A program made the position numbers and the translations under genes. Below, in pieces: positions 1,381 to 48,852 of a stretch of 64,000 bases of DNA. The notes beneath the pieces are model-generated. The model ran no database searches. It was not told the DNA's origin and worked only from the letters and a program-made list of their open reading frames with translations. Origin of the DNA: Octopus vulgaris (taxonomy: Eukaryota); assembly GCA_951406725.2 (NCBI GenBank), contig OX597820.1, positions 62,620,001-62,684,000 on the forward strand, in the 5' to 3' direction. Every line of letters starts with the position of its first letter. The stretch's first letter is position 1.

Positions 1381-1556
1381 TGTTAAAAATGTTAAGACAA
1401 CAAAAGAAAGAAAGATACCTCGATATTATGTAAATACAGGAATTTATCTGTAAATGCAATATGTGACAATTATTCGGCAGCCATGATAAAACTCCGAGTT
1501 TCGGATGCCGATGTGGAAATCCACGCCGCCATCTCTCTAGTTACCCGGCTATTTTT
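1381..1556 (-). mobile_element. Inverted Penelope pseudo-LTR copy with a degenerate hammerhead (1485-1545)
   Basis: The reverse complement aligns to 950-1120. The core reads GGTAA-CTAGAGA-GATG...CATC-C-GAAAC-TCGGAG-TT-TTATC, so the CUGANGA box is mutated. Confidence 0.8.
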
Positions 1557-1566
1557 TCGATGGCCG

Positions 1567-1627
1567 GATAACTGAAGAGATGGCAGCGTAGATTTCCACC
1601 TCGGTATCCGAAACTCGGAGTTTTATC
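1567..1627 (+). ncRNA. Type I minimal hammerhead ribozyme with intact catalytic core
   Basis: Stem I is GATAA(1567-71)/TTATC(1623-27). Core CTGAAGA is at 1572-78. Stem II is GATG/TATC around an internal hairpin, with one extra C. GAAA is at 1610-13. Stem III is quasi-palindromic (AACTCGGAGTT) and the cleavage triplet is GUU. Confidence 0.8.
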
Positions 1628-1630
1628 ACA

Positions 1631-1812
1631 GCTGTGTGGTAAGTAGCTTGCTTACCAACCACATGGTTCCAGGTTCATTCTCACTGCGTTGCACCTTGGG
1701 CAAGTGTCTTCTACTATAGCCTCGGGCCGACCAAAACCTTGTGAGTGGATTTGGTAAACGGAAACTGAAAGAAGCCCGTCGTATCTCTCTCTCTCTCTAT
1801 CTATCTATTTAT

Positions 1813-5462: not shown

Positions 5463-5517
<55 letters not shown>

Positions 5518-6626
5518 TTTTATTCTCTTTATATGTTTCAGGCCAAAGTCTGTGGCCATGCTGGAGCATTGACTTTTGGTGAAGGGGCGAGTTCGATAAA
5601 ACTGCTCTCTTGAGTTTCTTGCCGTGATATAGGGTCATCAGGCAACTTGGACAGCAACGAAATAGTATTTTGTTTTGCTATTATACTATACTTCAATGTA
5701 GATTACAGTATTGCAAGTCAATATTGTCTCTCCCTTTCATTTGGTAGTGCAATGTTCTGTCTTTTAAGTTTACCTTTATACATTCTCTATTCAAATCAGA
5801 GCCAGCACTGCAAACTGCAACGTTGTGTAACCGAATGCGTCTATGTAAAGTGTGCGACCGAGAGGATAGCAAAAGCAGGTAATGGTTTTATACACATTAC
5901 ACCGAATTCTTGATGTTTTATCAACAACACAGAAAGACCATAAGCTACCCATTATATATATATGTGTGTATGTATGTATGTATGTATGTATGTATGTATG
6001 TATGTATGTATGTATGTATGTATGTATATATACACACACAGACGGACGATGATATACTCAGCAGAATTTATTCAATCATTTGCTTTTTTAATGGTATTAA
6101 TAATTGGTGTCTGGTTATTTTAAAACACCGCTTTCGTGTTGAGACATCGATCTCATTATACTCCGTTCTCCTTCCGGCGCTATGTATATTTATATGCAGA
6201 AACTAAGCTTTAAATATTTAAAGTATGATCTCTCAAAACGACACACCAATCTTTCTTGATCAAACGTTAACATTCTTCAAAAGTTTTTAACTAAACATTA
6301 TTTATAACATTTTCTAACCTCAACCTACATTTCAAACTACTTTAGAGTATGTTAGTGCTTATTAAAATTCAAACTTGAACCAGCCACATTCTGAGAAAAT
6401 TGTTAAAAGATTTTATATGCACAAAAACACACATATAGACCTGATTATACACAGCGGCAAAAATCCCACAAGCAGAATCACCTCGTTGATTAATGCACCT
6501 ACTCACATCTCAAGACGTACATACGCCGGCCAGCATATAATATATATATATAAGTGTAAGCATACTTACCTCTCTATACATATGCGCATATGTTGACGCA
6601 TGAAATGTTTAGATAGCCGTAGATTG

Positions 6627-45115: not shown

Positions 45116-45289
45116 TAGCAGCAACAACAACAATAACAAATATCAACAGCAACAAAAACAACAGTGCTGGTTTCAAATTTTAGCACAAGGCCAGCAGTTT
45201 CATGGGGAGATGGAAAATGTTTGCGTGTGAGAGGAAGGATGTTTAGAAGAGAAAACGCAAAAGGAATAATGTACTTAATTTAGAATAGA

Positions 45290-45610
45290 AGAAAATCTCG
45301 TTGCTGTCATTCGTGCTGACGACTGTCATTATATCTTTCGGTGAGTAATTCTTACAAACACGGCTGACTTTGTTGTAAGTGAAAAATTGCGATTGGCTCC
45401 TGAGAGACAGCGCGGTACAGTCGAGTAGATTTCGTGTTGAGAAGAATTGTTCTGTTGGAGATGTCTGAAGGTAAGCATATGTATAACCAGAACCCAAAGA
45501 TTTGTAATAAGCCTCCTGATCTGAGGTAACAACCAGAAATGTTTTAATGGTTAGCAGCAGCACTGTTGTCACAGCTGCATGAAATCGACATTCTTAGCTC
45601 TATGATCGCC
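45290..45610 (-). pseudogene. Disrupted exon of a secreted PAN/apple-domain-like protein
   Basis: Has a polypyrimidine acceptor TTTTCCCATCTGTCTCACTCAG. ATG at 45580 is out of frame by 1 nt with a hydrophobic leader (TTVLLLTIKTFLVVTS). This is followed by ...TRNLLDCTALSLRSQSQFFTYNKVSRVCKNYS, a PAN-like C...F.Y.....C pattern with the second Cys missing. No GT donor is present at the apparent end. Confidence 0.6.
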
Positions 45611-47068
45611 TGAGTGAGACAGATGGGAAAAGAAATGGAATAAAAAATAGAGTTGGAGGGAGAGAGAGAGAGAGAGAGCGACTCGGGGAAGAGACAGAAG
45701 GAAATTTAATATACGAAGATAGAATGAGTACCATTGAGGATGGGAAAATGTTAGAGATTAACAAGGAGAAATTCTGAAAAAGAGAGAGATACAATGAGGA
45801 GATGGAAAATGTTTGCGTGTGAGAGGAAGGATGTTTAGAAGAGAAAACGCAAAAGGAATAATGTATAATTTAGAATAGAAAAATTAAAATAGATTAGGGC
45901 TATTAGTAAATATGTAGGTTCTGGGTATGATTTTTAAACTGCTTCCAGTAGTGGACCCTAGTTGGGTATTTCCAGGACTTTTACGAATTTGGAATCACTT
46001 CTTATCCAGTGTTGTTCTAATGTCTTCATTAACCCGGAGTAGAAATACTCGTTGGGATCCCACGTATGGGTTAATTAGTAAGTGTTCTACGACACCTTTG
46101 ATGTGCCAACACTGCATGAAATCGAACTTAAGCGTAGCATCACAAGAAAGAGGAAACAAACAGAGCGGTTGGAATAGTGCCTAAAGGGAAGGAATATCAA
46201 ATTTCCCTAGGAGGAAAATATCAAAACGGGAGGTGTGATGAAAGAAAAATAAATAAATATAAATAATAATATTAACTTCCAACGGAAGTCAATCTCAAAT
46301 GGAGAGATGTTGTGGCGAGAGTCATTGACATCTCTGGGGAATTGGAATAATGGACTAGCCGAACTCTTGCAAAGAGCAGCGTATTGGTTGAGATGTAAGG
46401 AGTTGGTAGATGTCGTTGAGAAAGCGATTTGGAATCTCGCGAAGTACGCCGTGTGACCACATTGATTTTCCCTCCGCTTCGTTAAATATAACATCTAGTA
46501 ACAGTAATGAGAAATTTAGTAACAGTAATGAAAAATAACATTTAGTAGTAGTAATGAGAAATTATTAATAATAGAAATATATCCAGTGATAATCTGGTGT
46601 GGTTTCGCCTAGGAAAGAAAATTTTTAAAAGAATTTTTCATCTTATATAAATATATTTTTCACATAAATTTTGATAGAAATCTTTCTATAAAATATAGTT
46701 TCATTGCCTTTCGGCATTTTGAGTTATCCATCGGGCATTTGTAGACAGGGAAAACCTTGAATCTGCTGTTTCCGCATATATACAGACCTTTGCTCAGGTG
46801 TAATTATTTTTGGGAGATGTGCTGTCTATGGATTGTTGCACATTGGCAAAGGGAATTTTTGGTTTTGGCAACTCTAATTATCTTTGCAATTTGGGAATGT
46901 GATGCAGTATATGAGATTCTGTCTCTTAGAGTTCATATTCGCATTGAAGGATCCACTTTTAAATTATATATAAAACCTTTATTGTTGTTATTACACATTC
47001 CACATCTATTGTCTCTAAAATCCTTCACGAAAATTCTAAATTATCTTCTATGCGATTTTTGCAGACGT

Positions 47069-47124
47069 ACTCATATCACGTAATTTCGGACCCTGTGATA
47101 AACATTTTGTCTTCGTCAGTGAGT
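47069..47124 (-). ncRNA. Type I minimal hammerhead ribozyme with intact core
   Basis: The reverse complement is ACTCA-CTGACGA-AGAC-[17 nt]-GTCC-GAAA-TTACGTGA-TA-TGAGT. Stem I is ACTCA/TGAGT, stem III is near-palindromic and the cleavage triplet is AUA. Confidence 0.8.
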
Positions 47125-47180
47125 GTTGCTGCTCAGGGCTAAATACTCGCGTCACAATGTGTGTATAGATCAACCAGTAA

Positions 47181-47238
47181 TACTCACTAATGAAGACTAA
47201 GTGTTTATCACAAGGTCTGAAATAACGTAATATGAGTA
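47181..47238 (+). ncRNA. Hammerhead ribozyme copy with a G5->A core mutation (inverted partner of 47069-47124)
   Basis: TACTCA-CTAATGA-AGAC-[17 nt]-GTCT-GAAA-TAACGTAA-TA-TGAGTA. Confidence 0.7.
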
Positions 47239-47374
47239 CCTCTGCAAAAATCATTTGCGATTTTTCCTCGCTGTTATCTCGAATTCACCAGTGTGTATAA
47301 GTGACTTATTGTGGTTGCTGAGCCATTTGAATCCTATTTCTAGCAATGATGTGTACTATATCGTACCCTGATTT

Positions 47375-47440
<66 letters not shown>

Positions 47441-47755
47441 AATACAAACAAACATATACATATACATGTATCTACATATATGCCTACATTATATGCCTTC
47501 ACACACACACATATATATATATAATGTATGTGTGTGTGTGTGTTTGTGTGTGTATACATATGTATTTGATATAATATAGATTCATTTCTGTACTACAGTT
47601 GGTTGATTTTCCGCTGCACTAGGAAACGCAACCCTTGTGTGTAAAGCAAAAATATATCAGTAATCAATTTGGAAAACAACAACATTAGAAAGCCAAGATT
47701 ATGGTTTTTATCGACCTGTTGTTCACTTTTAAGCCACTTTCAACTGAACGTTTAA

Positions 47756-47974
47756 CCCTTTAGTATTTACACCGGCCATATCCGCCCAAAATATTTAATC
47801 TGTTTTATGTTCAAACTGACCAGATCCAGACCCTCACACCTACCCTACAATGTTATTCTACATTAGGTAATTACACCATCAATATCTTGAAGATATGAGA
47901 TAATGCATGATTAATTCAAATCAATGTGAATCAATAAGCATTATGTTTGATAGAATAATCAGAACACTAAAGGG
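47756..47974. mobile_element. piggyBac-type (TTAA) MITE, 219 bp
   Basis: TTAA-CCCTTTAGT ... ACTAAAGGG-TTAA. Confidence 0.85.
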
Positions 47975-48351
47975 TTAAAAGCTAGTATCTCTGCTGAACG
48001 ATTTGTAATACTGCACTGAATGTAATAGTACGTTGGCACGCGAAAGATGTATGAAGGCAATATAGAGAATTGAAAATGTTAGAGTAAATATTCAGTTCAG
48101 TTAATTGATTTAGTTGAAGCTTACAATATTACAGCTAAGAACTCGCGGGAACTGCTTATATCCTACGTAATATATTGTCTATGTAATCCCCAAAATATTT
48201 TATTCCGTGAGCAGTGTCAAAATAATTTTAAACGTACATAATAGCAAACACCTTTTACTGCAACCTTAACATCAGACTATCATCTTATAAACAAATTAAT
48301 TTTGAAAAAAAACTTCTAATTTACTTGTCTTTTGACAGACATTCTCTAGAT

Positions 48352-48552
48352 CAGTGCTTTTCAAACTTTTTGCTGGAGCGGAACCCCAAGGAAACATTCC
48401 ACTGGCTCGGGGAACCCCTGTGCAATAATTTAATAGTCTTATGCACACATATCTGCACAGGAGAATTAAAAATTACTGCCGATTTTATCAGTTTTGTAAC
48501 TTCTTGCGGAACCCCTGGACTGTACTGGCGGAACCCTGGTTGAAAACCACTG
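48352..48552. mobile_element. hAT-Charlie-type MITE, 201 bp, with a perfect 8-bp TSD
   Basis: TIRs CAGTGCTTTTCAA and TTGAAAACCACTG. The TSD CTCTAGAT is at 48344-48351 and 48553-48560. Confidence 0.92.
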
Positions 48553-48564
48553 CTCTAGATCAAT

Positions 48565-48852
48565 ACCCTGTGAGAAACACTGCATTGCCATAACTTGTCC
48601 TCCATACCATACAGCCTAAGCGTGGGTCATATCCAACATCCTATAATGGAGAGACAGAAGCGAGCAACAGAGAGACAAAAGCAGAAAGGAAGAACATAAA
48701 GACTCAGATAGAACCGAGACAGCTCACGGCTGTGGCTTGTGTAATAGAGACTGCCATTTGCACATAGGACTGTTCCGACATAGACAATACTGTCCCAGTT
48801 GAGCGGACAAATAAGAGCCTCATCCATGGACATACATGATAGAAAGGAGCCA
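48565..48852 (+). mobile_element. RTE LINE 3' end
   Basis: HGCGLCNRDCHLHIGLFRHRQYC is the typical RTE terminal motif, followed by a short UTR. Confidence 0.7.

What the first reader, a model, noticed from the sequence alone, without database searches (positions are those of the whole stretch)
47051..47265. Stand-alone ~200-nt hairpin with one hammerhead on each strand and no retroelement ORF nearby
Seen: ~78-bp inverted arms (47054-47131 and 47175-47252) surround a ~43-nt spacer. Each arm is a type I hammerhead, unrelated in sequence to the one at 1.5 kb. The consensus is ACTCA-CTGAYGA-AGAC...GTCY-GAAA-TTACGTAA-TA-TGAGT, with a perfect stem III palindrome ATTACGTAAT. The minus copy has an intact core and the plus copy has G5A. 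TGCGATTTTT occurs at both ends (47051 and 47256). Inference: this is either the minimal footprint of a PLE insertion (inverted pLTR only) or a non-autonomous ribozyme retroelement. The layout (rod-like fold, one ribozyme per polarity) parallels viroid-like RNAs and would also yield dsRNA.
Basis: partly seen in the sequence, partly recalled or inferred. Interest (0 to 1): 0.75.

Follow-up and report, generated by a model that had tools for sequence, protein, structure and literature searches.

The report
Decayed head-to-head hammerhead retrozyme insertion
The hairpin is the mirror-image junction of one aged copy of a 408-base non-coding repeat with a hammerhead ribozyme motif, likely pasted by a Penelope-type retrotransposon; about half of the family's sampled copies have such a junction, so it is an ordinary member of a known kind and likely not a viroid-like two-ribozyme RNA.

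Summary
The arms and both hammerhead motifs are real, but the proposed 215-nt unit is not. They belong to a dispersed ~408-nt tandem-unit family. The plus copy runs on to 47376 and into (CA)n. The 'spacer' is the upstream part of the minus copy. The TGCGATTTTT 'ends' are family sequence (right) and target sequence (left). A decayed Penelope-like ORF fragment abuts the left arm, against 'no ORF nearby'. Head-to-head inversions occur at 27 of 51 sampled loci, nearly all with different breakpoints; this junction recurs only in a segmental duplicate. 3' ends cluster at two unit sites, run into microsatellites and pair short with long (12 of 14, p 0.012), as expected for Penelope-type priming from both target strands. 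The short left arm likely reflects a later deletion (423 nt present in a paralog). On either strand the hammerhead follows its own antisense and is predicted to be trapped (>60 kcal/mol). Verdict: old non-LTR retrozyme insertion, new member of a known kind. Earlier notes of this scan report the same kind in other families of this genome. Cleavage and expression are untested.

The parts
47054..47172 (-).
   Evidence: 87% to family majority, blast range 47058-47172; arm edge 47054
47069..47124 (-). Type I hammerhead motif, core CUGACGA / GAAA / UA, pair 10.1-11.1 an A.C mismatch; predicted cleavage between 47074 and 47073
47175..47376 (+). Direct, 5'-truncated copy of the unit (u351-578) with a ~26-nt internal deletion; ends at the family's 'short' 3' site (u170)
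   Evidence: 177 identities in 230 columns, 30 gaps
47182..47237 (+). Type I hammerhead motif with G5A in the core; predicted cleavage site between 47232 and 47233
47256..47265 (+). TGCGATTTTT = internal unit positions 23-32, not a terminal repeat
47051..47062 (.). Left junction: target (PLE ORF) sequence overlapping the element by a TTTTGC microhomology; likely deletion breakpoint
   Evidence: paralogs L060/L061 align up to 47062 and then continue with 423 nt absent from the window
47377..47560 (+). (CA)n / (TA)n / (TG)n microsatellite tract at the 3' end, the likely target
   Evidence: paralogs resume at 47512
46609..47062 (-). Decayed Penelope-like ORF fragment (linker Cys motif and GIY-YIG endonuclease) next to the element; separate family, the host site
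   Evidence: tblastn 47037-46666 vs 775-aa ORF, E 1.8e-8; that ORF hits RVT_1 and GIY-YIG above cut-off; DNA homology to paralogs 46609-47062

Best explanation
The hairpin is the head-to-head junction of an aged copy of an ORF-less, 408-nt hammerhead repeat family (a non-LTR retrozyme), likely inserted by a Penelope-like RT/GIY-YIG enzyme working in trans, and its short left arm likely results from a later deletion. Shown: the family, the tandem unit, the real boundaries, the frequency and variety of inversions, clustered 3' ends at microsatellites, and 423 nt of target present in a paralog but absent here. Inferred: the enzyme nicked both strands of the AT/CA microsatellite beside an older PLE fragment and primed cDNA from each strand at the family's two preferred sites (about u170 and u260); both cDNAs stopped early (u351 and u308) and were joined head to head; because both stops lie just upstream of the hammerhead, each arm holds one. 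A microhomology (TTTTGC) deletion then removed the outer ~245 nt of the inverted arm and ~420 nt of the PLE fragment. The locus is predicted to be inactive as a ribozyme: one core has G5A, the other lacks the 10.1-11.1 pair, and a read-through transcript of either strand makes the antisense arm first.
For: Unit recurs at a 408-nt period, with a 1.8-unit tandem at L004 and several copies longer than one unit. Head-to-head inversion at 27 of 51 loci, tail-to-tail at 1; hammerheads on both arms at 5 of 51, each with a different spacer. This junction: 2 matches in the genome, here and C28, which shares both flanks. 46 of 74 3' ends fall in u163-184 or u253-274 (bins chosen after looking); 49 of 74 run into microsatellite-like tracts against 31.5% of random positions. 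In the 14 inverted loci with both ends at those sites, 12 pair short with long, 2 short/short, 0 long/long (permutation p 0.012). These match PLE traits in print: inverted 5'-truncated copy, optional tail at one end, microsatellite bias (PMC8557442, passages); cleavage and extension of both target strands, internal RT start sites, hammerhead cleavage dispensable in vitro (PMC11167929, main text). PLEs with intact 775-aa ORFs exist in this genome. Hammerhead fold costs 61-63 kcal/mol inside the full hairpin. The 5 differences between the C7 and C28 arms each hit one arm only.
Against: The mobilising PLE family was not identified: no unit match in 30 endonuclease loci or 4 intact-PLE loci. 13 of 27 inverted loci, this one included, have at least one end outside the two preferred sites. 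No undeleted version of this insertion was found, so a deletion made during insertion is not excluded. Rfam hammerhead models do not score these motifs (best RAGATH-1 E 5.2 on copy L010), so the ribozyme call rests on motif and pairing. The 51 loci are best-scoring hits, biased to hammerhead-bearing copies; L037/L116 share 800 nt of flank and L104/L105 share a junction, so these may not be independent.
Confidence: 0.85

Rival explanations
1. The unit is simply the pLTR of an ORF-bearing Penelope-like element whose full-length copies have decayed or were not sampled; the locus is a doubly truncated inverted-pLTR insertion.
For: Same insertion architecture as PLEs; retrozymes are proposed to derive from pLTRs (bioRxiv 10.64898/2026.07.22.740005, abstract, introduction and passages). 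Only part of the family was mapped (166 first-look candidates, 40 scored).
Against: Sequence upstream of the hammerhead is the unit's own downstream sequence (408-nt period; L004 hammerhead to hammerhead without ORF). 0 of 51 loci have a PLE ORF directly upstream in the same orientation; ORF hits at L001/L002, L037, L049 and L116 lie downstream or tail to tail.
Confidence: 0.08
2. The double-hammerhead hairpin is a distinct mobile or functional unit, viroid-like with one ribozyme per polarity, or a kept source of dsRNA.
For: Very stable hairpin; 5 of 51 loci have a hammerhead on both arms; L104 and L105, 10 kb apart with no shared flank found, have the same inversion junction; 5' ends cluster at the base of stem I (12 of 74 in u338-352); the junction is kept in a run with another organism label.
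Against: Junction occurs only here and in a duplicate; spacers differ between the dual loci; arms have drifted 14% apart without compensation in the C7/C28 comparison; one ribozyme per strand cannot release a unit-length RNA from a linear locus (established hammerhead logic); both motifs are damaged and predicted to be trapped.
Confidence: 0.05
3. The inversion arose after insertion, by a DNA-level fold-back or break repair, not by two-ended priming.
For: The left end lies at a microhomology and target DNA is missing, so DNA repair did act here. Self-priming on an antisense template has been suggested for PLE palindromes (PMC3846280, passages).
Against: 53% of sampled loci are inverted, almost all head to head, with outer ends at two fixed unit sites; random repair would not give this.
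Confidence: 0.02

Closest known systems
Metazoan non-LTR retrozymes (Cervera and de la Pena 2020, PMC7229834, passages seen; Li, Clavereau and Pollet 2026, bioRxiv 10.64898/2026.07.22.740005, first fifth of the text and passages seen)
   Same: ORF-less, low-GC, tandem-type unit with one type I hammerhead; dispersed copies; co-occurs with PLEs.
   Different: 408 nt is at the top of the reported ~170-400 nt; the family is old and mostly under two units long (one locus with two tandem hammerheads among 51); circular RNA and cleavage not shown; inverted insertions were not met in the passages I saw.
Penelope-like elements with inverted 5'-truncated copies and tails (Craig et al. 2021, PMC8557442; Arkhipova et al. 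2013, PMC3846280; passages seen. Frangieh et al. 2024, PMC11167929, main-text section read; author names of this paper recalled)
   Same: Head-to-head inverted copy, variable 5' truncation, two preferred 3' ends, microsatellite/AT-rich targets, microhomology junctions, hammerhead in the repeat.
   Different: No ORF belongs to the unit; the two 3' sites are ~90 nt apart, not the 30-40 nt tail.
Metazoan type I hammerheads with short palindromic stem III (Cervera and de la Pena 2014, PMC4209133, passages seen)
   Same: Palindromic stem/loop III (family majority ATCACGTGAT), which suits cleavage as a tandem dimer.
   Different: Here the two motifs are on opposite strands, so they cannot form that dimer within one transcript.
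Avsunviroid-type and HDV-like circular RNAs with ribozymes in both polarities (recalled; only search listings seen)
   Same: One hammerhead per polarity and a highly paired fold.
   Different: The two motifs are copies of one sequence and each other's perfect antisense; the locus is linear chromosomal DNA; no circle or multimer is indicated.

Membership tests
Non-LTR retrozyme | Type I hammerhead in each unit | tested here: met
   Motif and stems in the family majority; core intact in 13 of 47 hammerhead-covering pieces. Rfam models do not score it.
Non-LTR retrozyme | Tandem-repeat unit of about 170-400 nt, low GC | tested here: met
   408-nt period; L004 holds 1.8 units with two hammerheads.
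Non-LTR retrozyme | No protein-coding capacity (non-autonomous) | tested here: met
   Unit closes on itself; 0 of 51 loci have an ORF directly upstream in sense.
Non-LTR retrozyme | 'Active' by Li et al.: two consecutive units with complete hammerheads | tested here: not met
   This locus has one damaged motif per strand; at L004 one of two cores has GAUA for GAAA. Fits a decayed copy.
Non-LTR retrozyme | Self-cleavage and circular monomer RNA | not testable with these tools
   Needs a cleavage assay and RNase R data.
PLE-type insertion | Inverted 5'-truncated copy at the 5' end, head to head | tested here: met
   27 of 51 loci.
PLE-type insertion | Preferred 3' ends with an optional extension at one end; microsatellite or AT-rich target | tested here: met
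   46 of 74 ends in two bins; 12 of 14 short/long pairs; 49 of 74 at microsatellites. This locus has only the short end left.
Autonomous PLE (pLTR of an RT-EN ORF) | Repeat follows an RT + GIY-YIG ORF in the same orientation | tested here: not met
   the adjacent ORF fragment is unbroken across the junction in paralogs without the unit.
Viroid-like dual-polarity RNA | A fixed unit with a working ribozyme in each polarity | tested here: not met
   No fixed unit; G5A and A.C 10.1-11.1; fold trapped by >60 kcal/mol.
Viroid-like dual-polarity RNA | Circular RNA replicating through multimers | not testable with these tools
   Only assembled contigs of runs were available.
MITE / DNA transposon | Terminal inverted repeats and a target-site duplication | tested here: not met
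   The inverted repeat is not terminal (right copy runs 124 nt further) and the two TGCGATTTTT have different origins.

The most novel reading that the evidence does not exclude
The family's template RNA has a defined 5' end at the base of hammerhead stem I (12 of 74 5' ends in u338-352, including this locus at u351), so two-ended Penelope-type priming repeatedly builds compact double-hammerhead hairpins (L001, L005, L104, L105); such hairpins could be re-copied as a unit (L104/L105 share a junction) or act as dsRNA triggers that silenced the family.
Probability: 0.12. Interest if true: 0.55.

Novelty: new member of a known kind. Interest (0 to 1): 0.2.

Why it matters
As a single locus it matters little: it is a decayed copy. 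As a family it adds one more case in which an ORF-less hammerhead repeat carries the full Penelope-type insertion signature (inversions, two fixed 3' ends paired short with long, microsatellite targets), which supports mobilisation of animal retrozymes by PLE enzymes from both target strands. It is also a caution: a hammerhead on each strand of a genomic hairpin arises routinely from this mechanism and is not by itself a sign of a viroid-like RNA. Younger families in this genome, noted earlier by the scan, would be better test material.

Tried and rejected
Rfam: whole window gave only sub-threshold miRNA-like hairpin matches among the 150 of 249 rows shown; no hammerhead family for the locus; E 5.2 on L010. 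Pfam on six short stretches and one read-through of the decayed ORF: no relevant family; the PLE call rests on tblastn to an intact ORF. TSD/MITE reading rejected. Assembly artefact rejected; of the three DNA-like runs only X2 bridges the inversion junction with 31 or more letters on each side, and none bridges the left junction by that rule (my notebook entry naming X1 as well is too generous). Search for the unit beside endonuclease ORFs: 0 of 30 loci and 0 of 4 intact-PLE loci. Expression: no RNA holder listed; run X4 has no cover over the element; four RNA-guess runs gave only 28-39-nt pieces on L004; none of this is evidence either way. snRNA-type promoter upstream of the u338-352 cluster: only AT-rich 13-15 of 20 matches to 14 U2 upstream regions, none at the expected distance; not supported, not excluded. 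~400-nt sequences shared by flanks of many loci look like abundant unrelated repeats; not followed. Literature searches listed no paper on this family or on genomic head-to-head hammerhead pairs as a separate class; listings only, supplements of the papers read were not opened and may hold relevant consensus lists. Look-up of earlier findings by sequence returned nothing.

Full report
Observation. The window (C7 of G000, a 2.8-Gb animal genome; earlier AI notes call it an octopus, not checked here) has 78-nt arms at 47054-47131 and 47175-47252, 86% complementary and 43 nt apart. The region folds at -113.5 kcal/mol, z -14.9. A motif scan finds a type I hammerhead layout on each strand: + 47182-47237 with core CUAAUGA (G5A) and - 47124-47069 with core CUGACGA, GAAA and a UA site. 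The structure is real DNA: a duplicate on C28 has it and one contig of run X2 crosses the inversion junction with 9 differences in 284 nt.

The real unit. A genome search with 47054-47252 gave 75 matches from 40 scored candidates; most cover the left arm plus the 'spacer' in one orientation. Aligning copies shows that sequence upstream of the hammerhead equals sequence downstream of it: a 408-nt period. L004 holds 1.8 units with two hammerheads 400 nt apart and no ORF. With u1 as the first base after the predicted cleavage site, the window is a minus copy u308-424 (47058-47172) joined head to head to a plus copy u351-578 (47175-47376) that runs into (CA)n. So the element is about 320 nt, the spacer is part of the minus copy, and the right TGCGATTTTT is u23-32.

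The left flank. 46609-47062 is itself a repeat (309 candidates, 40 scored). On the minus strand 47037-46666 matches residues 639-773 of a 775-aa ORF (36%, E 1.8e-8) that hits RVT_1 and GIY-YIG above cut-off: a decayed Penelope-like element. Older paralogs L060 and L061 share both flanks with the window, lack the hammerhead unit, and carry the ORF unbroken across the junction, with 423 nt more before the shared right flank resumes. At the junction L060 reads TGCGAATTTTGC, so the left TGCGATTTTT is mostly target, overlapping the element by TTTTGC. The ORF fragment is the neighbour the element landed beside, not its coding partner.

Does the hairpin recur as a unit? I mapped 52 loci (those returned or listed that I fetched; one listed place on C18 was not fetched), dropping L002 as the duplicate. 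27 of 51 have a head-to-head inversion, 1 has a tail-to-tail join, and 5 of 51 have a hammerhead on both arms, each with a different spacer. Breakpoints are shared only by L007/L026 (approximately) and L104/L105. A pattern over this junction, 2 mismatches allowed, matches only C7 and the C28 duplicate. The sample is biased to hammerhead-bearing, best-scoring copies and is a lower bound on the family (166 candidates). L037 and L116 share 800 nt of flank and may be one event.

Insertion signature. Of 74 pieces of at least 80 nt and 75% identity, 46 end in u163-184 or u253-274 (bins set after looking) and 49 run into microsatellite-like tracts, against 3279 of 10400 random positions. In the 14 inverted loci with both outer ends at those sites, 12 pair a short with a long end, 2 are short/short, none long/long (permutation p 0.012); the other 13 have an end elsewhere. 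PLE insertions are described with an adjacent inverted 5'-truncated copy, an optional tail at one end and microsatellite bias (PMC8557442, passages; PMC3846280, passages). A purified PLE protein cleaves and extends both target strands, starts RT at internal sites that match the tail, and does not need hammerhead cleavage (PMC11167929, main-text section). Non-LTR retrozymes are 170-400-nt tandem units with type I hammerheads (PMC7229834, passages), proposed to derive from PLE pLTRs (bioRxiv 10.64898/2026.07.22.740005, first fifth and passages).

Mechanism. Inferred: a PLE protein acting in trans nicked both strands of the microsatellite beside the old PLE fragment and primed cDNA from each at the two preferred sites; both products stopped just upstream of a hammerhead and were joined head to head. 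The plus copy keeps the short end (u170). The minus copy would be expected to reach the long end (about u260) but stops at u16 at a microhomology where 423 nt of target are missing, which is best read as a later deletion; a deletion during insertion is not excluded. The mobilising PLE was not found: no unit match in 30 endonuclease loci or 4 intact-PLE loci, and 0 of 51 unit loci follow an ORF in sense.

Ribozyme state. Core, GAAA and site are intact in 13 of 47 hammerhead-covering pieces, both C28 rows included: an old, decaying family. Here the + motif has G5A and the - motif an A.C mismatch at 10.1-11.1, a variant shared by many copies. Alone, the hammerhead fold lies 3.4 (+) and 6.7 (-) kcal/mol above the free ensemble; inside the hairpin it lies 61-63 above (secondary structure only). 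On either strand the antisense arm is transcribed before the ribozyme, so read-through RNA is predicted to trap it; the palindromic stem III suits tandem dimers (PMC4209133, passages), which opposite-strand motifs cannot form. The arms differ at 11 of 78 positions, and the 5 differences between C7 and C28 each affect one arm only. Rfam does not score these motifs as hammerheads. Cleavage and expression were not testable.

Unexplained. 12 of 74 5' ends fall in u338-352 at the base of stem I (Poisson p 3e-5 for that bin, chosen after looking), which is why compact double-hammerhead hairpins recur. A comparison with 14 U2 upstream regions gave no promoter match there. L104 and L105 share one junction without a shared flank.

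Verdict. An aged, head-to-head, PLE-style insertion of a non-LTR retrozyme: new member of a known kind. Eight earlier notes of this scan describe the same kind in other families of this genome (unchecked except where stated), and none matched this family by sequence. Interest 0.2.

Noticed in passing
window 1478-1634: The other hammerhead family (1567-1627, +) is also in a head-to-head inverted pair (83% over 157 nt); the same family forms an inverted pair with two intact cores at L069 2029-2239, downstream of a PLE endonuclease match.
   Followed up: partly
L096 3-1445 and 1358-3682; L097-L099: Young PLE family with many equal-scoring copies: a 775-aa RT + GIY-YIG ORF, preceded in L096 and L097 by an overlapping open frame of 480-495 codons with no Pfam hit (L096 tested); L099 has a 1.6-kb inverted 5' copy. 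A two-ORF layout in an endonuclease-bearing PLE may merit a look.
   Followed up: partly
L104 2257-2675 and L105 2442-2678 (C4, 10 kb apart): Same inversion junction at nucleotide level and shared variants, but different outer ends and no shared flank found.
   Followed up: partly
window ~45378-48761: Segmental duplication shared with C28 (92-97% identical), with older paralogs on C28 (L060-L062) that lack the hammerhead insertion.
   Followed up: partly
window 45202-45293 / 45794-45883: Direct repeat of 72-92 nt at 592-nt spacing.
   Followed up: no
window 46484-46563: Three imperfect 21-26-nt tandem repeats just downstream of the decayed PLE ORF.
   Followed up: no
window 5467-5529: Weak match (78% over 63 nt, E 4e-5) to the AT-rich part of the 408-nt unit; may be low-complexity chance.
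   Followed up: no
window 47732-47800: Start of an extremely abundant repeat (summed contig depth up to 4.6e5 in run X1).
   Followed up: no
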